A DNA stretch of 63,617 nucleotides, the filler included, from Folioceros fuciformis (Eukaryota), in assembly GCA_049999805.1 (NCBI GenBank). It is 19 parts of 19 records of this genome, joined end to end, with 100 filler letters (N's around TTAATTAATTAA, not from the genome) between each part and the next. Parts side by side here need not be neighbours in the genome. Positions count along the whole stretch, not along the records: positions 19,516 to 22,531 come from JBNGIO010006542.1; 18 more parts are not named here. One strand, given 5' to 3'. Positions 5,962-37,639 of the stretch are shown here, one piece after another; positions within the stretch are counted from its first letter, which is position 1; each line of letters begins with the position of its first letter. The notes beneath the pieces were generated by a model. The model made no database searches and had not been told where the DNA came from. It was given only the letters and a program-made list of their open reading frames with translations. Position numbers and translations under genes: made by a program.

Positions 5962-6796
5962 GAGCCAGTACTGGTGATGTCCAAGGCCAGCATTTGGATG
6001 TCCCTTTGGAGGGGTGCAGAGAAGGAGATTCGACATCCCCAGCCAATCTGATGAATGGGGAAGCTGCGGGTGCTCATGTGAGGATTCCTCGGCGTCGTGG
6101 TCGACCCAAGGCACTAGGGGCCCCGTCCGGAGCCAGTACGGGGAATGTCGAAGGCCAGAATTTGGATAGTCCCAAGGCAGTAGAGGAAGCGGCCGGAGCC
6201 ACTGGGGATGTCGAAGGCCAGCGTTTGGATGCCCCCTTGAAGGAGTGCACCAGAGGTTCTGAAGGGGCTGCCACAGCCATCCCGGGGAATGCAGACGCCG
6301 CAGCTGCTGCGACGACGATTCCCCGGCGCTGTGGTTCACCCGAAGGGTCCAGGAACAAATCCAAATCAATCGGGGAACTCGCCGGGGCACTGGTATGTCA
6401 AGGGCCAACATTTGTTTAGTCCGAAGGCTATATGTAGGGGAACCCGGCGGGGCCACTGGTGATGTCGAAGGGCAGCATTTGGAGATAGTTGGAAGGCTGG
6501 AGGGGAACTCGCCGCAGGCACTGGTGATGTCGAAGGGCAGCATTTGGATAGTTGGAAGGCTGGAGGGGGACTCGCCGCAGGCACTGGTAATGTCGAAGGG
6601 CAGCGTTTGGATAGGCCGAAGACACAAGTGGAACCCGTCGGAGGCACTGGTGATGTCGAAGAGGCCAGCGTTGGGATATCCGCTTGAAGAAAGTCTTCTC
6701 CCCTTCAGGAGTTTACCCTTGAACTGGGCTGATCTGGTTCTTGAAGCTCAGGGAGGTATGACCGCCAGAGTAGGGACGGGTATGTATTCATTGTAG
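5962..6796 (+). pseudogene. Repeat-rich AT-hook-like coding remnant (second copy 7681-8515)
   Basis: RIPRRRGRPK and RRCGSPEGSRNKSK motifs; recurring ACTGGTGATGTCGAAGG(G/C)CAGC unit (TGDVEGQ); in-frame stop at 6417-6419 and a later frameshift. Confidence 0.5.
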
Positions 6797-7229
6797 TCAT
6801 TAGCACATCATTGCTCGATCACGTTCTATCGTGATACCCCTGTCCCATCTGTCTCTGAACGTCCGCAACATCTGAGATGAAGGTTTCGGCATACATACTA
6901 ACCACAATGCTACCGGCAAATACATCTGTCTTTGCAAAACTCCAGCCAGCGACCGTGCAGCATGTACTTGCTTCCCATTCTGCAGCAACTCTCGTTCCCC
7001 GTCTTTTCCACGTCCAGAGACGGTCTGGTAGGCTCGCCTGCATGCGCCGGGTTTTTTACAAGCCTTGTCCACAATCGATGCATGCTCAGGGGAAATAATT
7101 TGTTCAGCCCCACATGAACTTCAGCCCTTCTCCGGAACCAGGACTCAGATGGAAACCACTCACAAACGAGTTTCGTTCATGCCGCTCCATTTCAAATCTT
7201 CCTGACAGCCACTCCACCGGGTATCACCG

Positions 7230-7580
7230 CAATTGCGGGACAGATATCGACACCCACGAGAGTGTGAAAGCAACAGTTCACCTATGCTTCGTCCGTTTTC
7301 ACAAAGCTTTCGGCACAGTACGTGGGCACAAACTGTGGGAGGTCCTGGAGGAAATTGGGGCATAAGGCATGTAATACGGGCAGCCCAACCGCCATACCAA
7401 TACCATGCACTGCGCGCGGAAGTAGGAGGATAGAACAGGGCCAATATAAGGCACTGGTGGGGTCAGAAAACGGTGCCCGTTGAGCTTTCTCTGTTCTGCC
7501 TCTATGTACAACGATCACACCGGCATCTGGAACAGATGCAGGGCACGCACACTGCTGATTGAGGGGATCACAACATATCA
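7230..7580 (+). mobile_element. Degenerate non-LTR retrotransposon RT fragment (second copy 8949-9299)
   Basis: HLCFVRFHKAFGTV..HKLWEVL resembles FVDFxKAFDxV; GVRKRCPLS/LFCLYV resembles GVRQGCPLSPxLF. Confidence 0.75.
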
Positions 7581-9399
7581 NNNNNNNNNNNNNNNNNNNN
7601 NNNNNNNNNNNNNNNNNNNNNNNNTTAATTAATTAANNNNNNNNNNNNNNNNNNNNNNNNNNNNNNNNNNNNNNNNNNNNGAGCCAGTACTGGTGATGTC
7701 CAAGGCCAGCATTTGGATGTCCCTTTGGAGGGGTGCAGAGAAGGAGATTCGACATCCCCAGCCAATCTGATGAATGGGGAAGCTGCGGGTGCTCATGTGA
7801 GGATTCCTCGGCGTCGTGGTCGACCCAAGGCACTAGGGGCCCCGTCCGGAGCCAGTACGGGGAATGTCGAAGGCCAGAATTTGGATAGTCCCAAGGCAGT
7901 AGAGGAAGCGGCCGGAGCCACTGGGGATGTCGAAGGCCAGCGTTTGGATGCCCCCTTGAAGGTGTGCACCAGAGGTTCTGAAGGGGCTGCCACAGCCATC
8001 CCGGGGAATGCAGACGCCGCAGCTGCTGCGACGACGATTCCCCGGCGCTGTGGTTCACCCGAAGGGTCCAGGAACAAACCCAAATCAATCGGGGAACTCA
8101 CCGGGGCACTGGTATGTCAAGGGCCAACATTTGTTTAGTCCGAAGGCTATATGTAGGGGAACCCGGCGGGGCCACTGGTGATGTCGAAGGGCAGCATTTG
8201 GAGATAGTTGGAAGGCTGGAGGGGAACTCGCCGCAGGCACTGGTGATGTCGAAGGGCAGCATTTGGATAGTTGGAAGGCTGGAGGGGGACTCGCCGCAGG
8301 CACGGGTAATGTCGAAGGGCAGCGTTTGGATAGGCCGAAGACACAAGTGGAACCCGTCGGAGGCACTGGTGATGTCGAAGAGGCCAGCGTTGGGATATCC
8401 GCTTGAAGAAAGTCTTCTCCCCTTCAGGAGTTTACCCTTGAACTGGGCTGATCTGGTTCTTGAAGCTCAGGGAGGTATGACCGCCAGAGTAGGGACGGCT
8501 ATGTATTCATTGTAGTCATTAGCACATCATTGCTCGATCACGTTCTATCGTGATACCCCTGTCCCATCTGTGTCTGAACGTCCGCAACATCTGAGATGAA
8601 GGGTTCGGCATACATACTAACCACAATGCTACCGGCAAATACATCTGTCTTTGCAAAACTCCAGCCAGCGACTGTGCAGCATGTACTTGCTTCCCATTCT
8701 GCAGCAACTCTCGTTCCCCGTCTTTTCCACGTCCAGAGACGGTCTGGTAGGCTCGCCTGCATGCGCCGGGTTTTTTCCAAGCCTTGTCCACAATCGATGC
8801 ATGCTCAGGGGAAATAATTCGTTCAGCCCCACATGAACTTCCGCCCTTCTCCGGAACCAGGACTCAGATGGAAACCACTCACAAACGAGTTTCGTTCATG
8901 CCGCTCCATTTCAAATCTTCCTGACAGCCACTCCACCGGGTATCACCGCAATTGCGGGACAGATATCGACACCCACGAGAGTGTGAAAGCAACAGTTCAC
9001 CTATGCTTCGTCCGGTTTCACAAAGCTTTCGGCACAGTGCCTGGGCACAAACTGTGGGAGGTCCTGGAGGAAATTGGGGCATAAGGCATGTAATACGGGC
9101 AGCCCAACCGCCATACCAATACCATGCACTGCGCGCGGAAGTAGGAGGAGAGAACAGGGCCAATATAAGGCACTGGTGGGGTCAGAAAACGGTGCCCGTT
9201 GAGCTTTCTCTGTTCTGCCTCTATGTACAACGATCACACCGGCATCTGGAATAGATGCAGGGCACGCACACTGCTGATTGAGGGGATCACAACATATCAN
9301 NNNNNNNNNNNNNNNNNNNNNNNNNNNNNNNNNNNNNNNNNNNTTAATTAATTAANNNNNNNNNNNNNNNNNNNNNNNNNNNNNNNNNNNNNNNNNNNN

Positions 9400-11080: not shown

Positions 11081-14000
11081 GACAGGTTCAGGTCTTGGAG
11101 GTCGGTGATCTGTGCGATGCTGGCGGGGATAGAGCCCGAGAACTTGTTGTAAGACAGGTCCAGGATGTTCAGCCCCTTCAGATCACCCACAGACGGAGCG
11201 ATCGGTTCCCGTCAACCCATTTCGCGCCAGTACCAGGCCAGAGGTGGCGGACAAGGCGTATTGAATATCCCTGAGGAAGGCAAGTTTTCCACAACATAGT
11301 AGTCCAAGGAGTAGAGAAGGGCTCCGGCAGTGTAGGATGCTGCGCCGCCCGCGACTGCCAAGCCACTGAAGCCTTGCACCAGCTGCTGGAGTGGCAGATT
11401 ACCTCCGAGGTCGTTGCTGGCGAGGTCCAAAATTTTGATGCTGTCGCTCAAACTGCTCAAGGACGCCGGCACGCTGCCAGAGATGTTGTTGAAGCTCAAG
11501 TCCAGAACTTGAAGGCCCTGAGATGCACCTTCCGGAGTGAGGGGTTGTTCACACTGACGTCGAACAAAATTGACTGTTCGCACTTAGCTTTTTCAAATGG
11601 AAGAAAGGAGAAGAGGGCCTGGGGGAGATGGGTACCGTGAAGGAGGTGATGGCAACAGGAATCTGGCCGGTCAGAAAGTTCCCGCTCACATCGCAGACCA
11701 GCAGGGAAGAACAGGATGTGAAGTCCACTCCGCTAGGCAGAACGGACCCTGTGAGCTTGTTGTTTTCCAGAACGAGAGCCTGCAGACTCAAACAGGTAGC
11801 ACTGAAGTCGGGGATGGCACCTTCCAATTTGCTGTTTCCCAGATTCAGAACCTGCAAGGACTGGGCGTTTGTGAACAGGGAAGCAGGGATGGAGCCGCTG
11901 AGCAGATTGTTGGACAGGTCGATGTCGCCGAACGGACTGTTGCTGGCTGTAGTTGCGGGGATGGCTCCCGTCAGTTTGTTGTTGCTCAGAATGAAGAAGT
12001 TAATGGACTGGCTGCCGAAGGAGTCGGAGGGGGATGACACCGCTGAGCTGGTTGTCTGCGAAGTTGAGTCCGCGTAGAAATGGACCTCCCCCAAGGCCGA
12101 CGGGGATGGAGCCTGTGAATTGATTCTGGTGCAGATCCAGGTAGGAGAGTGGAAAGATTTGAGTAAAAGCCTGGGGAATCGTCCCTTTCAATGCATTCAC
12201 CGAGGCGTTAAAGTAGCTCGTGGACATCCGGGTGCCGTCGAATGCAGGCAGCTGAGTGAGGTGGTTGTCGGATATGTCGATGGTGAAGGAGTTCATCTGG
12301 AACACCCATGCAGGCACAGGACCTGCGAGAGCCGGGAACTATATCATCACACTATGTCCTCAGGTCAAGCGATGCATGCGTTTCCTTTAAGTTTCCAAAA
12401 GCAAGAAGCCTGACAGACAAAGAAACCGGCAGACCATTTGACTCGTGCTTGACAACACACCTGTCAACTGGTTGGAGTGCACATCAAAGTCCTCCACACC
12501 CACTCCTGTGACGCCGCCACCAGGAATGCTCTCAGTGTCCAAGCTGGTGAGCTTGTTGTTGCTGAGTGTGAGATGTCTGAACCCCCATAGTGACTTCGGG
12601 TTCAGGGCTCCCGTGAGCTGGTTGTAGGACAGGTCAAGGTAGCGGTCAGCTTCGGAGATAGCGAACCCGAGGTCTTGCGGAATGTCACCAGTCAGCTGGT
12701 TTTGGGACACGTTCAGCAGGGCCAGGTGCAGCTGGGACAGCGAGGGAGGAATTGCTCCTGCGTTAAACCCATTTTGGTATCCAACTTTCTTGTAAGCTTT
12801 CAGCAAGTTGCGGGAAAACAAAAAGATGACGGGCAGATAGATGTGATGCAATGTCCTTGACTTGCGATACCTGTGAGGTCATTGTTGCCGGCGGCAAAGG
12901 TGAGCAGCGGCTTGCCAGCGCCTCCAAGAGATGCAGGAATGGGTCCGCTCAATTTGTTGTTATCCAAGGCGAGGTTGACAAGAAGTCCGCTTGCTCCCAG
13001 AGTAGATGGAATAGGTCCAGTGAGCTGGTTGTCGCTAAGCAACAGATCTGTCACCAGCAACCTGGTGAAAGACGAGGGAATGCTGCCGGAGAAGGATGCT
13101 CCTCGGAGAACCAGCACCTGAACGTCCGGGAAAGACAAAGGAAAGGAATTCATGCCCTCCATCAGGATACTCCTCCCATGGGACAATCCAAGAGACATCA
13201 ACTCCAGCACAGTCTGCAATGCTAGTGATGATGAGATGGCACAATGTAGAAAGAAGGAGAAGATAGTACCTGCAATTTGGGAAGCAATCCGAGAGAGGCA
13301 GGGATGGGTCCTCCCAGCGGGCTCCTTCGGAACAACCCGTCGATATCATACAAGCCTCCGATCCGCAATTCCTTGAGGGAAACAAGGTTCCCGAACGACG
13401 CAGGGATGGAGCCGGTGAAGTTGTTCCCCTCCAAGTAGAGTTTCTCCAACAACGGAAGCTCCCCAGGGTTGATGAGCGGAAGAGCGCCGGTGAGCCCGGC
13501 ATTGGTCAGCGTCAATGCGTCGATGTTGAAGGGCCCGGTGAGCAGCAACTCCCGAAGGTTCTTGAGCTGCTTCAGCCCGGCGGGAATCCTCCCGTTGAAG
13601 CCGGTGGACTGCAAGTCAAGCACCTGGAGCTGCGTGAACTGCGCGAAGCAGGCCGGGATGGCGCTGGCCTTACTGCCGTCTCCAAACCCGATGCCGGATA
13701 GGTCCAGCGTCTGCAGGTTCCTGAGCTTGCACAGGGACTGCGGCAGCGGGAGCGAGATGTAGGAGCTCCCTTCGAACGACAAATGCTGTAAGGACGCTAT
13801 GTTCCCAATGTCGGCCGAGACGGGCCCCTTGAGATCGGCTTCTATCAACGACAGCACCTGGAGGGTCTTGATGGCGCTCAGGCCCGTCGGGGTGACGTCG
13901 TGCAGCAGGAAATTGGTGAGATTGAGCACCCGCAGCGCCAGGAGATTCTTCAGCGTGGTGCCTACCAGGTTGGCCGAATTCGGGTTCCCGTACTTGCTAT

Positions 14001-14131
14001 GCACGCTGCCGCAGAGCTCCTCGTCGCACTCTTCGTCGATCACCGCCTGGAATGTCACATTCACCACCTGCCCCGTGTCGTCGCAGGTGACCCCCTCGAA
14101 TGAGCAGCAGTTCCCGCTGCTGTTCCATGTC
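11081..14131 (-). pseudogene. Extracellular plant LRR protein (PGIP/RLP-like), gene body with introns
   Basis: Many LxxLxLxxNxLxGxIP repeats. GT-AG introns near 13269-13119, 12870-12760, 12460-12323 and 11635-11575. Frameshifts near 12030, 11530 and 11205-11240. Confidence 0.85.
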
Positions 14132-19256: not shown

Positions 19257-19415
19257 CTAGGAGCATTTCTTGGGCAGAGGAGCGCCACACAGGCCGGAGT
19301 TCCCAGCGAAATCAGCGGCCGGGAACTTGCTAAGTTGCGAGGGCATGTGGCCTGTCAACAGGTTGTAGGACAGGTTCAGGTCTTGGAGGTCGGTGATCTG
19401 TGCGATGCTGGCGGG
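19257..19415 (-). CDS. C-terminus of the LRR gene
   Basis: ..DLQDLNLSYNLLTGHMPSQLSKFPAADFAGNSGLCGAPLPKKCS-stop. C-cap with no transmembrane or kinase domain; continues from 11081 through a 47-nt overlap. Confidence 0.9.
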   Translation of the reverse strand, partial: PASIAQITDLQDLNLSYNLLTGHMPSQLSKFPAADFAGNSGLCGAPLPKKCS

Positions 19416-19515
19416 NNNNNNNNNNNNNNNNNNNNNNNNNNNNNNNNNNNNNNNNNNNNTTAATTAATTAANNNNNNNNNNNNNNNNNNNNNNNNNNNNN
19501 NNNNNNNNNNNNNNN

Positions 19516-20649
19516 CCCATGATTTGCATACCCAGCAATCAGGGACGTCCATGTCACCACATCCTTCGTGGCCAAGCTGTCAAAAACCCTGCATGCATCT
19601 TCAAGTTCGCCACATTTTGCATACATGTCCACCAGGCAGTTGCCAACAAACAAGTTCTGAGAAACACCACTGTGCAACACGTGATAGTGCACTTCTCTGC
19701 CAGATTCCAAATCCGCAGCCAAGGCACAAGCTTGCAGGGCTGCTACATACACATGAGCATCCGCCTTCACACCCGAGCGTCGCATCTGATGGTACAGTTG
19801 TATAGCGTCCCTAGGTTTCCCATGTTTAGCATGCGCAGATATTATGGAACACCACAAGAAGGCATTTGGTTTCTCCACTCTGGTGAACACATCCATCGCC
19901 TCCTCCAGTCTCCCTCCACACGCATACATGCGCACGATGTTGTTCCCCAAGTACGCACTTGACTCGTAGCCGAGTTTGACGGTGAGATGATGAACTCGAC
20001 GGCCCGCCACCAAATCTTTCTTACATGCACACAACTTCAGCACAGTATACAAGAGAGACTCCGAAACAAGACCATTTGCGTGAGCCAGACATTCCAGGGC
20101 TCCAACGGCCTCTGTAAGCTTCCCCTGCTGACATAACATGCTCACGGTTACAGCTGTTACTACGCCCATCTCGGATCCTGCACGCCTGCTACATTCCGGT
20201 GAGCTGAACTTCAAACGCGAGGCACCATATCTCATCTGCATATCCGAAGAAACGAGCTGATTATCCACCCAAGCCGGCTTAAACATGTTGTCTAACCAGA
20301 GGACCTCGCGGGCCCCCTTACGCGTGAAGTCAGGCGAACGAGAGCTCTTCTTACCTCGCCTGTTATCCCACCACATGGCAGGGTCCAGCAAGAATTGTCG
20401 CCACAAGACTTCCTTCTCCTGCTCCTGCCGCTGCTTCGGGCCCCGGACCTGGCGACCACAGTCGCTGGAAAATGCTTCCCCAGCCATCCAATTGCTCTGA
20501 AGTGCTGCGTTCCTGACACAGCCGCACCTGCACACCTGGTTGTTTGTCAGCCACTGAGTCCCTGAGTCGAGCTGAGCTCCTCGCAGAATCCCTCCACAAC
20601 CACCACTCCGTAGCGGACACAACGGCTCGGATTGCCAAACAGTGGCCAT
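19516..20649 (-). CDS. PLS-class PPR protein, N-terminal half (putative transit peptide, PDF-like motif, first PLS triplets)
   Basis: Open frame from ATG 20649 (true start uncertain). WWDNR..PDF..LWL..PAWV motif, then P-L-S repeats to the contig edge. Confidence 0.93.
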
Positions 20650-21002
20650 CTTCGACACGCCGCTCTCGGAAGATAGAGATCATAGAGCATGCCAGAAATC
20701 ACCCTTAGCAAATGCAGTGCACAACGTGTATCGATGGTCAAGTCACCAAAACGAGATCACTCGGTCCGACGATCACAACAGAGAGCATCGCGGTGCTTGG
20801 CATCGTTGTACTGAGAGCGTGAAGCATGAAGTGCGAGTGTGCACAGTTCGCTGTCTCGAGGATGGACTGGACGTCGATGGTACTCGAATTACTCCAGGGT
20901 AGTTCAACAGACGTCTTGTTGGAAGAAGACCTATTTTGTCAGATGATCAGCGGTGTTGCGTCGAGCATCCTCTGAGAACTGGCTGGCAGTCCATTTTCGC
21001 TC

Positions 21003-22531
21003 TCACGGTCGACCCTTACAACTACAACAACCAGCCGCGAATCGGTGGACACGATATCCATCCCTTACGACGATGTCTCTCTTTTCAACCCTTGACATTA
21101 TTTCGGTGGAGCTGTGGCAGTCGCTGCACATCCGTAAATTCTTGGTAACCACCAAAGGCGTGCCACTCGGAGTGTTCAAGAGACCAAAAGCCAAAGCCAG
21201 CTTCTCGGCATGCCCACAAAGTGCATCTTCCTTTTCCTTCTCAGGCACTCGCTTTAGCACCAACTTTGTGTGTGGTACGTGGCCCCCTTCCCGCTTCAGA
21301 CGTGCATTCATGCTATCAACCTCAGGCGCAATGTCCGATCTATTTTCTCCCACCAGAAATGTATGCAACTCATTATTCACCTCGATGCCCGCCACTGCAG
21401 GTTTTTTGTTAGCTCCAGCTAACATTCTCTGTGTTTCGACCCTCTCTGCATCAGTCCACATGCCAGCGTCTGCATAGGCGTGGGCCATCAGCACATAGGC
21501 GGATGCACCATCAGGGTCCAATTTAACCAGAGTTTCATAACACTGGGCCGCCCTCACTATGTCTCCATGATTTTTGCAGGCATTCAGCAATGACGTCAAA
21601 CCCACAACATTGTTGCGGCTCTCGCACGATAATAGCATGTTCTCCGCCTCATCTAAATGGCCTGCACGGCCAAGCAGATCAACCATGCTATTGTAATGGT
21701 CAATAGTGGGTTGAATGCCATGCTGTTCAACCATGGCATCAAAGTGCTTGCGTCCCTCATTTACCAGGCCCGCATGACTGCATGCTGCTAAAAGGCAAGT
21801 GAATGTGATATCATTAGGCTGAAAACCTCCGACCAACATCTCCTGGAAACAAGCCAGCGCGCTGTCACCTTCGTCAGCGGCACCATATCCAGCTATCAGG
21901 GCATTCCACGTCACCACATCCTTTGTGGTCAAGCTCTCAAAAACACAGCGTGCATCTTCCAGTTTGCCGCATTTCGCATACATGTCCACCAGGCAGTTGC
22001 CGATAATTATGTTACGCAGATGTCCTCTTTTTACAATCTGCGAGTGCAGCTGCCTGCCCTTTTGTAAGGCACCGGCACTTGCACAAGCCTTTAGTAGGCA
22101 AGCAAAAGTAACATCGTTTCCCACAATCTGGCCCTCCTGCTCCATTTGTTCATACAGAGCAAGCGCCTCTCGGCCCGAACCTTGCTGTGCATACCCCGCA
22201 ATGAGGGAATTCCATGTCACCACATCCTTTGTCGTCAAGAGATCAAAGACCCGGCGTGCGTCTTCCAATTCACCACACTTTGCATACATGTCCACAAGGC
22301 AATTGCCTATGAATATGTTATCTACCTGTCCCCTTTCCACAATTTGTGAGTGTAGCTGCCTTCCCTTCGTCAAGGCGCCCGTGCTTGCACAGGCGTTCAG
22401 AAGGCAAGCAAACGTGACATGGTTACCCACAACAAACCCCTCCTGCTCCATTTCTTCATACAGGACGAGCGCCTCTTGGCCAAACCCATGATTTGCATAC
22501 CCAGCAATCAGGGACGTCCATGTCACCACAT
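21003..22531 (-). CDS. PLS-E1-E2-DYW:KP (GRP-type) PPR protein, C-terminal half; candidate U-to-C editing factor
   Basis: KKPAVAGIEV in place of the PG box, HAEKLA..LRMCSDCH deaminase motif, terminus HRFAAGCCSCKGRP instead of DYW. Confidence 0.95.
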
Positions 22532-22631
22532 NNNNNNNNNNNNNNNNNNNNNNNNNNNNNNNNNNNNNNNNNNNNTTAATTAATTAANNNNNNNNNNNNN
22601 NNNNNNNNNNNNNNNNNNNNNNNNNNNNNNN

Positions 22632-25124
22632 TGCTGTAAGACAGGAATTTTACACGTTGAAGATGAGAGAGGGGGAGAAGATGGCTGCTCACATCACCAA
22701 GTTTCGTCAACTCCGATCTCAACTCTTGAGCATGGGTACGAAAATGGATGAGTTGGATGCAGCCGCTCACCTCCTCACAACGTTGCCACCGTCGTACCAA
22801 GGCTTCATCACTACGCAGAATATTCCCTACCTGACTGCCTCAGCTGGCCGGACCTCCACCTATACAGTCGACACCCTCATCGGAGCACTGTTTCAGGAGG
22901 AACAAGCCAGGAGTCACTCATCTGGGGGCTCACGCTCCAAGGGAGACAAAATTCTGTCGGCAAGGCATACACCTAATAGAGGCAAGGGTAAGTTTCAGGG
23001 TACCCAGAAGTCTGATTCCAGTTCTGGTAACCCACCTAAGCGGACAGGGACTTGTAACTGGTGCGGGATTGCTGGGCACTGGGCCCGTGAGTGCAAGAAA
23101 AAGAGGGCTGGTGAGCCGCAGCGAACTCCTAAGAATTCGGCTAGTGTCGTTAAGGAGAAATCCAGCGACACTAAAAATGTGGTCAAGATACTTACAGTTT
23201 GCTTGACAAGTTCTTGTCTGGACATGGAAAGCTGGTACCTTGATTCTGGTGCCACGGCTCATATCTGTCGGAACAAGACTCATTTCATCTCACTGACCTT
23301 ATGTTGTGAGAACGACAAGGTGTTTCTAGGAGATGAACAACTTGACAGCAGCCTGCAAGTTAAGGGACAAGGCAAAGTTACTTTCAGACTGAAGGACGGT
23401 TCAGATCTTACTCTTGAACGCGTTTTGTACGTACCTGACATGGCTAAAAATCTGTTGTCCATGAGCCAGCTTCTCAAGCTACGGACGATTGAAATGAGAG
23501 CCACCGGTGATACGTGCACCTTCTACAGGAAGGCAGCGCCCGACATTTCTATCTTCCAGGGTTTCCTTGAAGATGATCTGTATTGCCTTGACCTCTTACC
23601 CGTTAAGACTGCCACAGTCCACAGTACTGGATTAGCTAATATGGACACCAAACAGTTGGCTATGTTATGGCATGCGAGACTGGGACATCCCAACAAACAG
23701 AAATTGTTGGACATGTCTGTTAAACAGTGTTTTAGGGAACCACTTCCCCGCTGTTTTAAGGACTTACCATCCTGCGAGGCATGCATAATAGCCAAACAAA
23801 AGGAGCACCCTTTTCCTTCCGCGCCTGCTTACAGAGCCACCTCTGTTCTAGGTCTGGTCCATGCGGACATCTCCGGACGGATACAAGTGCCCTCAATCGG
23901 TGGTTCCAATTACTATCTCACCTTGACGGACGACTACAGCCGATATACCTGGACGTTTCCCATGCAGAGAAAGAGTGACGTTCTTGAAATCTTCAAGGAA
24001 TGGCTCCCTGCAGTGCAACGTCAGACAGGTTTGTTATTGAAGTACCTGCGTACTGATAACGGGGGTGAATTCGTCAATGATGCTTTTGATGCATACCTTG
24101 CTGCGGAGGGGATCCAGCGACAGTTGACTCTTCCTTATACACCCCAGCAGAACGGGGTCTCGGAGAGGAAAAACCAGTCTTTGCTCTCTATGACGCGGAG
24201 CATGTTACTCTGGTCGGGTCTACCTCAAGTGTACTGGGCAGAGGCCATCTCTGCTGCGACGTATGTTCTGAACAGAATTCTTACGAGCTCTGTCCCGAAC
24301 CAGACTCCTTATGAGGCCCTCCATAAGAAGAAACCCAGCCTGCTGCACTTACGAGTTTTTGGCTCTCGTGCGTATGCTTTCATTCCTGCAAAGAAACGCC
24401 AGAAGTTAGACCCACGAGCTCAAGCCCTAGTTTTTGTGGGGTATAGTGAGCAGGCCAAGGCATATCGGCTGTATGACCCAACTACAAGGAAGATGTCCCT
24501 TGCACGCAGTGTCACCTTCATCGAACCTCACTCTCCATTGCTTGCTCAAGCTCCACAGACAGAGGGAGTTACGGCTGTCCCTGAGGAGACAGAGGGAGCT
24601 ACTACGTACCCTGTGCCTGAAGACCAGGTTACCCATCACATGTATCCTCAAGACACCGAACCGGCTGTGAGACTTTTGGATGCCGTTGTGGAGACTGACG
24701 CACTGCCTGCTGACCCTCCTGCAACGGAACCACTCGCTGCATTAGAAATTCAGGCGGCCCCGGATCCTGCAGCCCTAAATGCCCCTTCTTCCCCTGCTCA
24801 GGCTGACGAGGACTTCCCAGTAGTAGCCGATGAGCACGACTCAGACTTCATCGCGGATGAAGACATACCTGAGGACGTCCAACTACCAATAGTCCCTCCC
24901 GTTGAGATTACCCGTGATCCTGAAGTAGTTGCTCCTCGCCGCTCAGGACGCCACCGACCACCACCTGATCAATGGGCCGAACCACGCTATCAGTCTATTG
25001 ACTTTCGTCACCGGGCAGCCCCAGCTACTACTCACACTGCTCCATCAGCCATACCAGATGAGCCACGCACCTTGGTTGAGGCTTACAACGGACCTGATAG
25101 CAAGCAATGGTATGCGGCTGTTGA
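22632..25124 (+). mobile_element. Ty1/copia gag-pol fragment (gag, Zn knuckle, protease, integrase)
   Basis: Uninterrupted frame: CNWCGIAGHWAREC, WYLDSGATAH, WHARLGH..CEAC, DDYSRY/TDNGGE/ERKN. Clearly related to 33149-37639. Confidence 0.97.
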
Positions 25125-33148: not shown

Positions 33149-36100
33149 ATGTCCAGACTTGTTGTCCCTGATAGTGAGGATGAGGAAGACTTTGACTCTT
33201 CAGATGAGGAGGAAGGTGAGATAGACTTAGCGTCATATTTTGCTTCATCTTTTTGGCAGTATAACCCTCCTATCATACAAGTACAACACCCTCTACCAGT
33301 CACACAGGTTGTTAGAGCAATGGCAACCCCATCTTTCACATCAGACCTTAAGGAAAAAGACAGGTTTAATGGAACCAAGTACCCAGTCTGGAGGGTGCGT
33401 ATGAAGGCCATTCTGATTGCACGGGGTTGCTGGAGTGTTGTGGATGGTTCCTTCCCAGAGCCAGATCCCATCACTGGTTCTCAAGCTGACAAGGAGAAGT
33501 GGGCCTCCATTAATGAAGTGGCTGTTGCAGTTCTCATCAATGGATTGGCCACAGACCTTGTACCTGATGTGGAATACCTGACAAAAGGCATTCAAATATG
33601 GAATCAGCTCGAGAAGACGTATCAGGTCATCAACATCATGACTAAATGCGCAGTCTGGCAGGAATACTATGCTTTGCGAATGAAGGAAGGAGACAAAGTT
33701 GGAGTTTTTACCAGCAAATTTCGTCACCTCCGGTCGCAACTTGCTTCCTTCAACATAAAGATCGAGGAGGAACATGCTGTTGTCCAATTGCTAAGCAGTC
33801 TCCCAGCCACCCTCCAGCAGTTTGTCAGTTCTTACAATGGACCACTGAATGCATCTCAAGCTGCGGTAACTGCTGGGACTGCCAGTACATTGACAGTGGA
33901 TGACATAGTTGCTGCCCTGCATCAAGAGGAGCAGAGTAGACTGTTTTCCGTTGGTGGATCTAAGCCCAAAGCAGAAAAAGTCCTAGCTGCAAGGTTTAAA
34001 CCAATTAGGCAAAAAGGCAAGGCTCACCCTCAGGGGTACAGTGAGCCTGGGCAATCTTCTATCACGAAGAAAACAGGAAATTGTAACTGGTGTGGTATCC
34101 CAGGGCACTGGGCTCGCGACTGCCGGAAGAAAAAGGCAGGAGAACCCCAGAAAAAGGCTTCCACTAATGTTGTTGTTAAGGAGAAAGGCTCGAGTGACCA
34201 CTCGGCACCTACAGACAACAAAGGAACGGTTAGAATATATACTATTTGCCTTTCCAATTCCAAGCACGATAGGGACAGTTGGTACTTGGACTCAGGTGCA
34301 ACTGCTCACATTTGCAAAGACAAGGATTTGTTCTCATACCTGGACACTTCTCATACGGTTGAGAAGGTGTTGCTTGGGGATGAGAAAAATGAAACTGGCC
34401 TCCGCATTGAAGGACAGGGTAAATGTACCTTCATTCTGCATGACAGAACTGACCTGGTTTTGGAAGATGTTCTGTATGTACCCAGGATGGCCAAGAACCT
34501 TGTGTCTTTGAGTCGATTGCTTGGTACGAGGGCATACAGCATGTTTGCAGACCAAAGCTCCTGTTCCTTTTACACTACCACTGTTCCATACAGATTAGTG
34601 TTTAAAGGAATTCCAGACAGTGACCTGTATTGTCTTGACATCCATTGTAAGCCTGAAACTGTTACTTTGTCAACAACCCCAGGTCAGATGGATACAAAAG
34701 CCCTAGCTTCCCTTGGGCACGCCAGATTAGGTCATGCCAATAGGGCTAAGCTAATCGATATGTCGGTTAAGGACTGTTACAGAGAGCCCTTACCACAGTG
34801 CTTCAAGGACTTGCCTATTTGTGAGGCTTGCATCCTGGCGAAGCAGAAGGAGCAGTCATTCCCCACCACACCTGCACACAGAGCCAGCCACGTCTTAGAG
34901 TTAATACATGCGGATATCTCAGGAAAAATACATGAGCCGTCACTTGGGGACTCTAGATATTACCTCTCTTTTACAGATGATTTCAGTCGTTATTCCTGGA
35001 CCTTCCCCATGCAACTTAAGAGTGACACCTTTCGACTGTTTACTGAATGGCTTCCTGTAGTGCAACGTCAAACAGGACAGTTGGTCAAATGGCTGCGGAC
35101 TGACAACGGCACGGAATTTGTGAATGCCCAGTTTGATTCCTACCTACAAGGGCATGGAATTCAGCGTCAGTTGACAGTCCCCTACACCCCTCAACATAAT
35201 GGAGTTGCTGAGCGGAAGAATCAAACCTTGCTCGGCATGACACGCAGTATGCTCCTCTGGGCTGGTCTTCCTCAGGGATACTGGGCAGAGGCTGTTGTAA
35301 CTGCTACTTACATCCTTAATAGGGTGTACACAAGTGCTGTGAAGGGTCAAACACCTTATGAGGTCTTCTGGAAGCGTAAGCCTAGCATTCTTCACCTTCG
35401 TGTTTTTGGTTCTCGAGCCTTTGCCTATATACCTGCCGAAAAGAGGAGGAAATTAGACAATAGGGCTCAGGGTCTTATTTTCGTCGGATATAGTGAAACT
35501 GCTAAGGCCTACAAGCTCTATGACAAGCACAGGCACTCCATAATGTTGGCACGAAGTGTTACCTTTTTGGAACCTCATGCACCTGTCGGCGAGCCAGCCT
35601 CAAAGGTAGTTACTGCAGAAGCAGAGGGAGTTGACGACGATGCAGACACAGATGCTCATGCTCCTGGAGACTATCCACAGGATGACACTGAAGCGCTCGA
35701 TGATGACCTCCTTCGACCTGTCCCTGATGTTCAGGCACCACCAGATGAGTTGATTCAGGCTGGTGATCAGCAAGATGCGCCTCCTGTTGAGGGATCCATG
35801 GATATTCTAATTCTACACCAGGGTAATGAGAACGTTGACCAAGGCCCTTACCTGGATGAGCACGAGGTCGAAGACATATCCGAACCTGCAGACCCATCAC
35901 TTGTTGACGAGACAGATGCAATAGGTCCACCTGAGCCAGAGCTTCGACGTTCTGCAAGACATAGGCTAGAGAGGTCAGCATGGAAGGAGCTACCATATCA
36001 ATCCATTGATTTCAGGCACTCCTCCTCAGCAGTCACAGTCCCTTTACCTGATGAGCCCAAGACCTTATCCCAAGCTTTCAATGGTCCAGAATCTGCACAA

Positions 36101-37639
36101 TGGCGTGCAGCAGTAGAGGACGAGTACCAGTCCTTGGTTAAGAACAAGACCTGGACGCTTGTTGATTTACCATCTGGGAGGAAGGCAATCTCCTGCAAAT
36201 GGGTCTTCAAGTTAAAGTTGAATGCAAAAGGCGAAGTAGCAAGATTCAAGGCACGACTAGTGGCAAGAGGCTTCACTCAAGTCGAGGGTTTGGACTACCA
36301 GGAGACTTTCTCACCTGTCGTTAGAGCACAGTCCATCAGAGTAATCTTGGCCCTGGCAACTCAGTACGATCTCGACCTGGAACAGATGGATGTGTGTACA
36401 GCATTCCTCTATGGGGCTTTGGATGAGGACCTTTATATGGAACAGCCAGAGGCCTATGTAGACAAGCAGCACCCACACAAGGTGTTAAAATTACTCAAGT
36501 GTATATATGGTCTCAAACAGAGTGGTAGGGTCTGGTATGTAACCATACACATTTTTCTGTTGAGCATTGACTTCCTACAAAGCACAGCGGATACAAACGT
36601 ATACAAACTTACCAGAGGGTCTCAGTACGTGATCCTTGCCTTGTACGTAGACGACGTCATACTGGCTACTAACAGCCAGCCTCTGCTTTCTGAGGTCAAG
36701 GCCCTATTAAGTAGTAAGTTTGAAATGAAGGACATTGGCGAACTCAGGTTCTGTTTGGGAATACAGATTATCCGCAACAGACCAGACAAGTTGATGGTCA
36801 TTCATCAGCAAAAATACATAAATGAGATCCTAAGAAGGTTCAAGCTGGAAGACTGTCGGCCAGCTACTACACCTGCAGCCGTTGGGGTAAAGCTGACTAG
36901 CCTCATGTGCCCACAGAGTGCCCAAGACAAAAAGGATATGGAAAATGTGCCATACAGGCATGCAGTAGGCAGTCTTATTTTTGTCGCTAACTGGACTAGA
37001 CCAGATGTGCAATATGCTGTTAGCACAGTGTCACAGTTCTTGGAAAATCCAGGGAGGGGGCACTGGGTGGCCGTAAAACGGATATTCAGGTACCTTAAGG
37101 GTACCATTCATCATGGATTAGTATACAAAAGTAATGGGGAGGATAGACTTACTTTACGGGGATTCACAGACGCTGACTGGGCCTCAGACTTTGATTCCCG
37201 CAGGAGCCTATCCACATACTGCTTCTTGTTAGCATCTGCAGCTGTAAGCTGGAGCAGCAAGAAACAAAGTTCAATCTCTTTATCCTCAACCGAAGCGGAA
37301 TACAAATCTCTTACAGAAGCCGCAAAGGAGGCTGAGTGGGAGAGGAGATTCTTACAAGATCTTGGTCAGGAGCAAGTTGAACCGACCCTAATTTCTTGTG
37401 ACAACATGTCAGCCTTGGCGCTGGTAGCTAATCCTCGTTTCCATGCAAGAACCAAACATATCGAAATACAGCATCACTATATCCGTGATGCTGTGGATAG
37501 AAGAGTAACGAAGGTGGGCTTTATTAAAACGGAGGACAACTCTGCTGATATTCTAACAAAAGCTTTGCCAAAGCACAAGCACTATCAGCATGTGGAGGGC
37601 CTAGGTGTTTGTGACTTCTCAGTACACACTGAACAGTGA
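33149..37639 (+). CDS. Copia gag-pol polyprotein, 1496 aa (gag probably from ATG 33320)
   Basis: Order gag, CCHC, PR (DSGA), IN, RT (FKARLVARG, QMDV..AFL, YVDD), RNaseH (DADWA, EAEY, ADILTK). Confidence 0.99.
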   Translation: MSRLVVPDSEDEEDFDSSDEEEGEIDLASYFASSFWQYNPPIIQVQHPLPVTQVVRAMATPSFTSDLKEKDRFNGTKYPVWRVRMKAILIARGCWSVVDGSFPEPDPITGSQADKEKWASINEVAVAVLINGLATDLVPDVEYLTKGIQIWNQLEKTYQVINIMTKCAVWQEYYALRMKEGDKVGVFTSKFRHLRSQLASFNIKIEEEHAVVQLLSSLPATLQQFVSSYNGPLNASQAAVTAGTASTLTVDDIVAALHQEEQSRLFSVGGSKPKAEKVLAARFKPIRQKGKAHPQGYSEPGQSSITKKTGNCNWCGIPGHWARDCRKKKAGEPQKKASTNVVVKEKGSSDHSAPTDNKGTVRIYTICLSNSKHDRDSWYLDSGATAHICKDKDLFSYLDTSHTVEKVLLGDEKNETGLRIEGQGKCTFILHDRTDLVLEDVLYVPRMAKNLVSLSRLLGTRAYSMFADQSSCSFYTTTVPYRLVFKGIPDSDLYCLDIHCKPETVTLSTTPGQMDTKALASLGHARLGHANRAKLIDMSVKDCYREPLPQCFKDLPICEACILAKQKEQSFPTTPAHRASHVLELIHADISGKIHEPSLGDSRYYLSFTDDFSRYSWTFPMQLKSDTFRLFTEWLPVVQRQTGQLVKWLRTDNGTEFVNAQFDSYLQGHGIQRQLTVPYTPQHNGVAERKNQTLLGMTRSMLLWAGLPQGYWAEAVVTATYILNRVYTSAVKGQTPYEVFWKRKPSILHLRVFGSRAFAYIPAEKRRKLDNRAQGLIFVGYSETAKAYKLYDKHRHSIMLARSVTFLEPHAPVGEPASKVVTAEAEGVDDDADTDAHAPGDYPQDDTEALDDDLLRPVPDVQAPPDELIQAGDQQDAPPVEGSMDILILHQGNENVDQGPYLDEHEVEDISEPADPSLVDETDAIGPPEPELRRSARHRLERSAWKELPYQSIDFRHSSSAVTVPLPDEPKTLSQAFNGPESAQWRAAVEDEYQSLVKNKTWTLVDLPSGRKAISCKWVFKLKLNAKGEVARFKARLVARGFTQVEGLDYQETFSPVVRAQSIRVILALATQYDLDLEQMDVCTAFLYGALDEDLYMEQPEAYVDKQHPHKVLKLLKCIYGLKQSGRVWYVTIHIFLLSIDFLQSTADTNVYKLTRGSQYVILALYVDDVILATNSQPLLSEVKALLSSKFEMKDIGELRFCLGIQIIRNRPDKLMVIHQQKYINEILRRFKLEDCRPATTPAAVGVKLTSLMCPQSAQDKKDMENVPYRHAVGSLIFVANWTRPDVQYAVSTVSQFLENPGRGHWVAVKRIFRYLKGTIHHGLVYKSNGEDRLTLRGFTDADWASDFDSRRSLSTYCFLLASAAVSWSSKKQSSISLSSTEAEYKSLTEAAKEAEWERRFLQDLGQEQVEPTLISCDNMSALALVANPRFHARTKHIEIQHHYIRDAVDRRVTKVGFIKTEDNSADILTKALPKHKHYQHVEGLGVCDFSVHTEQ

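What the first reader, a model, noticed from the sequence alone, without database searches (positions are those of the whole stretch)
20254..20406. OSB-type PDF single-stranded nucleic-acid-binding motif fused in front of a PPR-GRP editor
Seen: LWRQFLLDPAMWWDNRRGKKSSRSPDFTRKGAREVLWLDNMFKPAWVDNQL between the putative transit peptide and the first PPR. Established: this matches the PDF motif (W..F..P..WWDNR..K....PDFKHK..GEALWL...P.WV) of plant organellar ssDNA-binding OSB proteins, where it mediates ssDNA binding; ordinary angiosperm PPR-DYW editors lack it. Inference: a built-in accessory module that could melt RNA, tether the editor to nucleoids or R-loops, or substitute for trans cofactors. 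It may already be noted in hornwort PPR surveys, which I cannot check here.
Basis: partly seen in the sequence, partly recalled or inferred. Interest (0 to 1): 0.72.

Follow-up and report, generated by a model that had tools for sequence, protein, structure and literature searches.

The report
OSB-type PDF domain on PPR editor
A plant gene for an organelle RNA-editing protein carries, just ahead of its RNA-reading repeats, a small domain otherwise known from organelle DNA-binding OSB proteins, and the same combination recurs in mosses, lycophytes and ferns without, as far as I could find, having been described.

Summary
The peptide is real, on the minus strand (window 20406->20254). It is a true homologue of the OSB PDF motif. 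A profile built only from PDF copies of 27 SSB-domain (OSB-architecture) proteins scores it 68.7 bits (E 1.6e-23), against 7.7 bits for the best of 2000 shuffles. It lies in one uninterrupted ORF: disordered N-terminus, folded PDF mini-domain, about 17-residue linker, PLS-type PPR repeats.

The GRP-ending DYW:KP half is on the same 3016-nt contig but upstream. The contig ends share an exact 47-nt repeat, so the join is inferred. A 753-aa relative (P0132) with the collinear PDF-PPR-E-DYW:KP-GRP architecture supports it.

PDF-PPR fusions are not GRP-specific. I saw 22, named ones from Sphagnum, Diphasiastrum, Selaginella and ferns. Of 6 with a deaminase domain, 5 end DYW and 1 ends GRP. The only seed-plant case looks like a merged gene model.

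The likely role, inferred and not shown, is a sequence-independent single-strand nucleic-acid grip 5' of the PPR footprint. I found no paper describing the fusion, but three key papers were not held. No expression evidence was obtained.

The parts
19516..22531 (-). The 3016-nt contig that holds the finding. It is bounded by spacers in the window.
   Evidence: Spacer map.
20440..20649 (-). First in-frame ATG (20649) and about 70 N-terminal residues. The model shows them disordered. Possibly an organelle presequence, which was not tested.
   Evidence: Upstream in-frame TGA at 20682 and first ATG at 20649. pLDDT about 30 over residues 1-69.
20233..20436 (-). PDF domain (P0001 residues 75-142).
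   Evidence: 68.7 bits to the OSB-only profile. 522 database hits. AlphaFold2 gives helix, small three-stranded sheet, helix, with pLDDT 81-95.
20182..20232 (-). Low-confidence linker of about 17 residues between the PDF domain and the first PPR helix.
   Evidence: pLDDT 42-45 over residues 143-159.
19516..20181 (-). PLS-type PPR repeats of the N-terminal half (P0001 residues 160-381). The ORF runs off the contig end.
   Evidence: Pfam PPR 7.4e-22 and PPR_2 2.5e-20. Helical repeats with pLDDT above 90.
19516..19562 (-). 47-nt exact repeat, copy at the 3' end of the coding strand. It encodes part of DVVTWTSLIAGYANHG.
   Evidence: 2 matches with 0 mismatches, 0 expected by chance.
22485..22531 (-). 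47-nt exact repeat, copy at the 5' end of the coding strand.
21003..22529 (-). C-terminal half ORF (P0002, 508 aa plus stop): PPR repeats, E motif, DYW:KP deaminase ending GRP.
   Evidence: Pfam PPR 6.3e-59, E_motif 3.4e-08, DYW_deaminase 4.5e-33. Sequence.
21006..21284 (-). DYW-family deaminase domain, KP type (HAEKLA, CSDCH, terminal GRP).
   Evidence: PF14432 over P0002 residues 416-506. Motifs read.
21381..21407 (-). KKPAVAGIE box, the KP box that replaces the PG box.
   Evidence: Regex hit at P0002 residue 375; the same box is in P0132.
20650..21002 (-). 353-nt spacer between the TGA of the GRP-ending ORF and the ATG of the PDF ORF.
   Evidence: Bridged without differences by a 675-nt contig of run X1 (20514-21188) and an 831-nt contig of run X3 (20359-21188), from two studies.

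Best explanation
This is a nuclear gene, very probably of a hornwort, for a PLS-class PPR RNA-editing factor of the DYW:KP/GRP type, the type credited with U-to-C editing. It has an OSB-type PDF domain immediately N-terminal to its PPR array. Shown: the domain is homologous to the PDF motifs of OSB proteins. It is in frame with the PPRs. It is predicted to fold on its own as a helix, small sheet and helix unit joined to the first PPR by a short flexible linker. The same architecture is conserved in moss, lycophyte, fern and hornwort-type proteins. Inferred: after import, the PPR array reads its RNA target with its N-terminal repeats on the 5' side (established PPR polarity, recalled). The PDF domain, rich in conserved Trp/Phe and Arg/Lys, would then grip single-stranded nucleic acid just 5' of the PPR footprint without sequence preference. 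That would add affinity or keep the site unfolded for the C-terminal deaminase. Also inferred: the PDF-bearing ORF continues into a GRP-ending deaminase half like the one on the same contig.
For: Homology: with figures under the observation check. Hits include proteins that sources name OSB3 (Canna indica P0040, Chenopodium P0009, a Lupinus member of the P0006 cluster) and OSB1 (Drosera P0130, a Phtheirospermum member of the P0101 cluster). 27 of the 150 listed hits have Pfam SSB N-terminal to the motif. One ORF; an X1 contig at 20125-20356 spans the PDF core to the first PPR helix without differences. Fold: motif alone pLDDT 83.7, pTM 0.68; in P0001 the domain has pLDDT 81-95, the linker 42-45 and the PPRs above 90. 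Conservation in the PPR context: in 13 aligned PDF-PPR proteins, 11 of 16 invariant columns lie in the PDF domain (W86 D98 R100 K103 D110 F111 L120 W121 P128 W130 V131). Recurrence: 12 of the 150 best hits and 11 of 12 long hits carry PPR, always C-terminal to the motif. Named sources are Sphagnum, Diphasiastrum, Selaginella, Adiantum, Ceratopteris and Pteridium. GRP link: P0132 (753 aa, one continuous protein) aligns with P0001 at 52% (82-380 vs 81-363) and with P0002 at 59% (to its GRP end). Function lead, from passages read: the PDF motif of AtOSB1 is reported sufficient for ssDNA binding (PMC6963530); GRP-type designer proteins did U-to-C editing at 22-26% in E. coli (PMC9478123).
Against: No binding or editing data exist for any PDF-PPR protein. 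AtOSB1/2 are reported to prefer ssDNA over RNA and dsDNA (PMC4166229 passage), which argues against an RNA role. The closest relative P0132 has a degraded motif (SRDF for PDF, LCWDIR for WWDNR; 50.8 against 68.7 bits), so constraint may be relaxed in the GRP lineage. The GRP half lies upstream of the PDF ORF on the contig and the two are joined only through a repeated 47-mer. They may be two tandem genes. No RNA run holding the stretch is on record, so transcription and splicing are unverified. Targeting was not tested.
Confidence: 0.55

Rival explanations
1. The PDF domain binds organellar DNA, as it does in OSBs, or another protein. It would anchor the editor at nucleoids or transcription sites, or drive oligomerisation, and would not touch the RNA substrate.
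For: OSB1/2 are reported to prefer ssDNA over RNA (PMC4166229 passage). AtOSB2 is reported to be a tetramer (PMC6963530 passage). The flexible linker would allow binding to a separate molecule. The motif also occurs on non-RNA proteins such as a kinesin (P0060).
Against: In the PDF-PPR proteins whose motif positions I mapped, the motif lies N-terminal to the PPR region. That fixed place suits joint action on one strand. No data bear on oligomerisation by the motif itself.
Confidence: 0.25
2. The PDF-bearing ORF and the GRP-ending ORF are two different tandem paralogues. For this locus, 'PDF fused to a GRP editor' would then not be literally true, and the PDF gene may end otherwise.
For: On the coding strand the GRP half comes first, then TGA, 353 nt, then the ATG of the PDF ORF. 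That junction is real DNA in contigs of two studies. The contig simply starts and ends in the same 47-mer, as expected where an assembler breaks at a repeat. Many paralogous PPR contigs lie on these ends (loose ends at 19525 and 19588).
Against: P0132 has both halves in one protein, at similar identity to each (52% and 59%). Identical ends are also what a collapsed tandem array of like copies gives, in which case each copy has both parts.
Confidence: 0.25
3. The motif is a functionless leftover of a domain-shuffling event, or the gene is dead.
For: P0132's motif is eroded. No expression evidence was obtained.
Against: All hallmark residues are intact here. Both ORFs are open over 381 and 508 codons. 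11 PDF columns are invariant across 13 PDF-PPR proteins from at least four land-plant lineages.
Confidence: 0.1
4. Assembly or gene-model artefact joining an OSB gene to a PPR gene.
For: The contig is short and bounded by repeats. One angiosperm hit (P0201, Kingdonia) combines SSB, PDF and PPR and looks like merged neighbours.
Against: There is no SSB/OB domain here. The ORF is continuous. A unitig without differences spans motif to first PPR. The same join is present in P0132, P0104 and 20 other proteins from separate sources.
Confidence: 0.03

Closest known systems
OSB proteins (Arabidopsis OSB1-4 and homologues): organellar ssDNA-binding proteins with C-terminal PDF motifs
   Same: The roughly 50-60 residue PDF motif is homologous, residue pattern included. 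Proteins that sources name OSB1 or OSB3 are among the hits.
   Different: No SSB/OB-fold domain is present. The motif is N-terminal and single, and is followed by PPR repeats. OSBs have one or more copies after an OB-like domain (PMC13393729 and PMC4166229 passages).
Hornwort DYW:KP PPR proteins of the GRP subgroup (basis of designer KP2/KP3)
   Same: PLS PPRs, E motif, DYW-family deaminase with KPAVA box, HAE, CSDCH and terminal GRP. GRP is described as a hornwort subgroup, and designer versions did U-to-C editing (PMC9478123 passages).
   Different: The passages I read describe no N-terminal PDF domain. Designer proteins start at the first P1 motif. Linkage of the GRP half to the PDF ORF is inferred here.
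P0132 (753 aa, unnamed assembly contig) and P0104 (401-aa fragment)
   Same: Same order: presequence-like N-terminus, PDF, short linker, PLS PPRs, E, DYW:KP, GRP. Identity is 52-59%. The window's motif pairs with that of P0132 in the motif tree (SH-aLRT 95).
   Different: P0132 has fewer PPR repeats and an eroded PDF signature.
PDF-PPR-DYW proteins of Sphagnum and Diphasiastrum (P0092, P0193, P0191, P0192, P0197)
   Same: N-terminal PDF motif(s), then PLS PPRs, E and a deaminase domain.
   Different: They end in canonical DYW rather than GRP. P0191 has three PDF copies.
MORF/RIP helper proteins of seed-plant editosomes
   Same: Resemblance of role only, as a hypothesis: an accessory that raises PPR-RNA binding. 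MORF genes are reported only in seed plants (PMC13386178 passages). The named PDF-PPR fusions I saw are all from non-seed plants, apart from one doubtful Kingdonia model (P0201).
   Different: No sequence or fold relation was tested or claimed. MORFs act in trans; the PDF is built in.

Membership tests
PDF motif (domain family of OSB proteins) | Signature of about 50 residues with conserved W, F, P, WWDNR, K, PDF, LW, P.WV | tested here: met
   The alignment to the OSB-derived profile consensus matches all these positions. W86 (given as W17), D98, R100, K103, P109, D110 and W130 are invariant across 38 sequences.
PDF motif (domain family of OSB proteins) | Significant profile similarity to PDF copies of proteins that also carry the SSB/OB domain | tested here: met
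   68.7 bits, E 1.6e-23. Best of 2000 shuffles 7.7 bits.
PDF motif (domain family of OSB proteins) | Binds single-stranded DNA | not testable with these tools
   Known for AtOSB1 only from review passages. The primary paper, Zaegel 2006, was not held.
OSB protein family | Central SSB-like / OB-fold domain N-terminal to the PDF motif(s) | tested here: not met
   Pfam finds no SSB in P0001 or P0002 at E<=1. Residues 1-69 are predicted disordered. It is therefore not an OSB protein.
PLS-class PPR editing factor, DYW:KP, GRP subgroup | PLS-type PPR array followed by an E motif | tested here: met
   PPR 7.4e-22 (P0001) and 6.3e-59 (P0002); E_motif 3.4e-08.
PLS-class PPR editing factor, DYW:KP, GRP subgroup | DYW-family deaminase domain with zinc-site motifs HxE and CxxCH | tested here: met
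   PF14432 4.5e-33. HAEKLA and CSDCH are read in the sequence.
PLS-class PPR editing factor, DYW:KP, GRP subgroup | KP box instead of PG box, and a C-terminal GRP triplet | tested here: met
   KKPAVAGIE at P0002 residue 375 and the end ...CSCKGRP. The definition of the subgroup comes from PMC9478123 passages.
PLS-class PPR editing factor, DYW:KP, GRP subgroup | All parts, with the PDF domain, on one polypeptide at this locus | tested here: inconclusive
   The halves meet only through identical 47-nt contig ends. The collinear P0132 supports the join. Laid contigs did not resolve it.
PLS-class PPR editing factor, DYW:KP, GRP subgroup | U-to-C editing activity in organelles | not testable with these tools
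   Only designer GRP proteins have been assayed (PMC9478123).

The most novel reading that the evidence does not exclude
PDF-PPR proteins form an undescribed, ancient class of self-sufficient editing and RNA-processing factors of non-seed land plants. In them a built-in single-strand-binding PDF domain would do what trans-acting helpers such as MORFs do in seed plants, or would couple editing to single-stranded organellar DNA or R-loops at transcription sites. The domain would then be a ready-made add-on for improving designer C-to-U and U-to-C editors.
Probability: 0.2. Interest if true: 0.8.

Novelty: new variant of a known kind. Interest (0 to 1): 0.6.

Why it matters
PPR editing factors are usually described as a presequence, PPR array and C-terminal E/DYW parts. 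A conserved, folded N-terminal nucleic-acid-binding domain would add a part to that picture for hornworts, mosses, lycophytes and ferns, which are reported to lack MORF helpers. It also shows that the PDF motif, treated in the papers I read as an OSB hallmark, is a mobile module found on PPRs and other proteins. This gives a direct handle on what the motif binds, RNA or DNA. For engineering, U-to-C designer editors based on GRP proteins work poorly (22-26% in E. coli), and a natural accessory domain of GRP-type proteins is an obvious thing to try adding.

Tried and rejected
1. Translating the given coordinates on the plus strand gave nonsense. The feature is on the minus strand.
2. Word-indexed homology searches with the motif region found nothing: 'near' lengths, 7 candidates, none scored; 'longer', 255 candidates, none scored. 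This reflects tool sensitivity, not absence. The exhaustive phmmer search and the profile search found the family.
3. No whole genome is held for this window, so PDF-PPR genes in this organism could not be counted.
4. Expression and splicing: no RNA holder is listed. All laid runs were short assembly contigs swamped by PPR paralogues. X3 is only guessed to be RNA, and its depth over the spacer and the coding parts is alike, so I treat it as uninformative on transcription.
5. Pfam has no model that hits the motif, either here or in the OSB-like hits.
6. Solved structures: the sequence profile A1 against PDB gave 0 hits at E<=1. Foldseek against PDB gave 0 matches at E<=0.001, best 3.7. VIA-align against 48,161 chains gave none at Z>=5; the best was Z 4.9, rmsd 4.5, 62 aligned, a generic helical match. 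This does not show that the fold is new.
7. The motif tree (80 rows, 68 columns, quick method) is too short to settle one or several fusion events. The PPR label needs 5 changes, but starred branches force only 1.
8. Literature. 'PDF motif'/OSB/pentatricopeptide, 'PDF motif'/ssDNA/organellar, organellar ssDNA/DYW/PDF, 'PDF domain'/PPR/OSB and OSB-like/PDF-like/PPR-DYW/PLS-class turned up no paper describing a PDF-PPR fusion. Term searches inside PMC13393729 (0 occurrences of PPR), PMC13386178, PMC7027989, PMC11897456 and PMC9459714 (0 relevant PDF/OSB) were also blank. Not held, so unseen: Zaegel 2006 and Gerke 2020. Gutmann 2020 was not looked up. No supplements were opened.
9. Earlier notes of this scan: nothing near the place or by sequence.

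Full report
WHAT THE WINDOW IS

The 63,617-base window is not one molecule. It is 19 contigs of 1.1-6.4 kb joined by N44-TTAATTAATTAA-N44 spacers. Other contigs carry Copia-type retrotransposon ORFs and LRR fragments, so it is nuclear DNA of a plant. No whole genome is held for it.

The finding lies on the contig at window 19516..22531 (3016 nt), and the gene reads on the minus strand. The plus-strand translation of the given coordinates is nonsense. The minus strand gives exactly the quoted peptide, residues 85-135 of P0001.

ANATOMY ON THE CODING (MINUS) STRAND

The parts, in order:
- 22529->21006: an ORF open at the contig edge (P0002, 508 aa). It has PLS-type PPRs (Pfam PPR 6.3e-59), an E motif (3.4e-08) and a DYW-family deaminase (4.5e-33).
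- That deaminase carries KKPAVAGIE, HAEKLA and CSDCH and ends in GRP.
- TGA at 21005-21003, then 353 nt of spacer.
- An in-frame TGA at 20682, then the first ATG at 20649.
- An ORF (P0001) that runs to the other contig edge.

The AlphaFold2 model of P0001 was built with 12 PDF-PPR relatives as alignment. It shows:
- residues 1-69 disordered (pLDDT about 30);
- 74-142 folded (pLDDT 81-95) as a helix, a small three-stranded sheet and a helix;
- 143-159 a low-confidence linker;
- PPR helices with pLDDT above 90 from residue 160 on.

The motif segment folded alone with a 38-row alignment gives the same unit (pLDDT 83.7, pTM 0.68).

The two contig ends are the same exact 47-mer, inside the PPR segment DVVTWTSLIAGYANHG.

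IS THE MOTIF A PDF MOTIF?

Yes.
- phmmer with 71 residues against 1.84 billion representatives found 522 proteins at E<=1e-3, many with several copies, up to 13.
- Only the best 150 are listed. Pfam at E<=1e-5 gives these counts: 27 of 150 with an SSB domain N-terminal to the motif copies, which is the OSB architecture; 12 with PPR; 1 with kinesin; 2 with probably spurious DUF hits; 108 with nothing.
- Sources name several hits or their cluster members OSB3 (Canna, Chenopodium, Lupinus) or OSB1 (Drosera, Phtheirospermum).
- To avoid circularity with the PPR-borne copies, I built a profile from 52 motif copies of the 27 SSB-bearing proteins only. It scores P0001 residues 75-142 at 68.7 bits (E 1.6e-23). 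The best of 2000 shuffles scores 7.7 bits, and P0002 is not hit.
- Every hallmark position is matched.
- Pfam has no model for the motif.

It is not an OSB protein, because there is no SSB/OB domain.

IS IT REALLY FUSED TO A PPR-GRP EDITOR?

PDF plus PPR is shown directly. They share one ORF. A contig of run X1 at 20125-20356 spans the PDF core to the first PPR helix without differences.

The GRP part is less direct. On the contig the GRP half precedes the PDF ORF. The stop-spacer-start junction is genuine DNA, seen without differences in contigs of two studies (X1 20514-21188; X3 20359-21188). So there are at least two such genes in tandem, or a collapsed array. The PDF ORF is joined to a GRP half only through the 47-nt repeat.

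Support for the join comes from P0132, a continuous 753-aa protein from another assembly. It matches P0001 at 52% (82-380 vs 81-363) and P0002 at 59% through to its own ...GGRP end, with the same KKPAVAGIE box. I put about 0.75 on the PDF gene here ending in a GRP-type deaminase.

HOW WIDESPREAD IS IT, AND IS IT TIED TO GRP?

Besides the 12 of 150 above, a profile search restricted to proteins of 712-2030 aa gave 12 hits at E<=1e-5, 11 of them with PPR domains. Together that makes 22 distinct PDF-PPR proteins.
- Named ones come from Sphagnum (2), Diphasiastrum (6), Selaginella (1), Adiantum (4), Ceratopteris (1), Pteridium (1) and Kingdonia (1).
- The Kingdonia protein also has SSB and is probably two merged genes.
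- The other six are unnamed.
- Six have a deaminase domain: five end in DYW and one (P0132) in GRP.

So the domain is a feature of a subset of PLS PPRs of non-seed plants, not of U-to-C editors in particular.

In 13 aligned PDF-PPR proteins, 11 of the 16 invariant columns fall in the PDF domain. That argues for selection on the domain.

In a short motif tree the window pairs with P0132 (SH-aLRT 95). The pair sits in a starred clade of 9 PPR-borne motifs that includes fern proteins. A single origin of all PPR-borne motifs is neither forced nor excluded. For the tree I left out P0201, motif matches covering fewer than 45 profile positions and matches with domain E above 1e-5.

MECHANISM

Shown: homology, reading frame, an independent predicted fold, a flexible tether and conservation.

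Established elsewhere:
- The PDF motif of AtOSB1 is reported sufficient for ssDNA binding, and OSB1/2 prefer ssDNA over RNA and dsDNA (review passages in PMC6963530 and PMC4166229). The primary paper was not held.
- GRP is a hornwort DYW:KP subgroup, and designer GRP proteins do U-to-C editing at 22-26% in E. coli (PMC9478123 passages).
- MORF helpers exist only in seed plants (PMC13386178 passages).
- From recall: PPR arrays bind RNA in parallel, with the N-terminal repeats on the 5' side.

Inference: the PDF domain sits one short linker upstream of the first PPR, so it would contact single-stranded nucleic acid just 5' of the PPR footprint through its conserved aromatic and basic residues. 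That would add sequence-independent affinity or keep the site open.

The main rival is that it binds organellar ssDNA or a protein and positions the editor at nucleoids. The erosion of the motif in P0132 is a point against strict necessity in the GRP lineage.

NOVELTY

None of the five literature searches, nor the term searches within five papers, turned up a PDF-PPR fusion (34, 36, 41, 71, 72).
- The 2026 OSB survey required both OB and PDF domains and never mentions PPR.
- The 2026 survey of editing factors has no occurrence of PDF or OSB, and its domain-fusion section is titled for fusions among PPR, MORF, ORRM and OZ.
- Zaegel 2006 and Gerke 2020 were not held and Gutmann 2020 was not looked up, so all three are unseen, and no supplements were opened. 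The claim 'not described' is therefore limited to what I searched.
It agrees with this report but is not independent evidence.

VERDICT

I rate it a new variant of a known kind, with interest 0.6.

Noticed in passing
whole window; spacers e.g. 19416-19515 and 22532-22631: The window is 19 separate contigs joined by N44-TTAATTAATTAA-N44 spacers. Neighbouring features on different contigs are therefore not genomic neighbours.
   Followed up: yes
window 5962-7580 and 7681-9299: Two contigs of identical length (1619 nt) are 99% identical in the same orientation. They are probably alleles or a recent duplicate.
   Followed up: partly
window 22657-25124 (+) and 33149-37639 (+): Copia-type LTR retrotransposon polyprotein ORFs with gag, Pol beta-barrel, integrase and RVT_2 domains. 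The second is a full 1496-aa open frame.
   Followed up: partly
window 13225-14067 (-) and about 19300-19415 (-): Leucine-rich-repeat gene fragments (Pfam LRR families). The one next to the finding's contig is on a different contig.
   Followed up: no
P0004 (730 aa) and cluster members P0180-P0184: A protein with 9 PDF-like copies is recorded from the dinoflagellate Effrenium voratum. Reviews say the motif is confined to green plants (PMC4166229). This could be transfer from a green lineage, contamination or a wider distribution.
   Followed up: no
P0102 (390 aa): An SSB domain plus two PDF copies in a transcriptome protein of the prasinophyte genus Pyramimonas. This is an OSB architecture deep in the green algae.
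   Followed up: no
P0060 (1526 aa, Coptis chinensis); P0003 (1160 aa, Kingdonia uniflora); P0201 (999 aa, Kingdonia): PDF copies occur on a kinesin-motor protein. One protein without any Pfam family has 13 copies. One model has SSB, PDF and PPR together and is probably two merged genes.
   Followed up: no
P0132 residues 80-144: The closest full-length relative has an eroded PDF signature (SRDF for PDF, LCWDIR for WWDNR) and scores 50.8 bits against 68.7 for the window.
   Followed up: partly
window 20363-20683 (-), other frame: A 106-codon ATG ORF overlaps the 5' part of the PDF ORF in another frame. No evidence was sought that it is used.
   Followed up: no
P0194 and P0195 (JGI metagenome proteins): Two PDF-PPR clusters stand for 46 and 60 member sequences from metagenome contigs of about 3 kb. 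This suggests abundant plant, perhaps moss, DNA in those samples.
   Followed up: no
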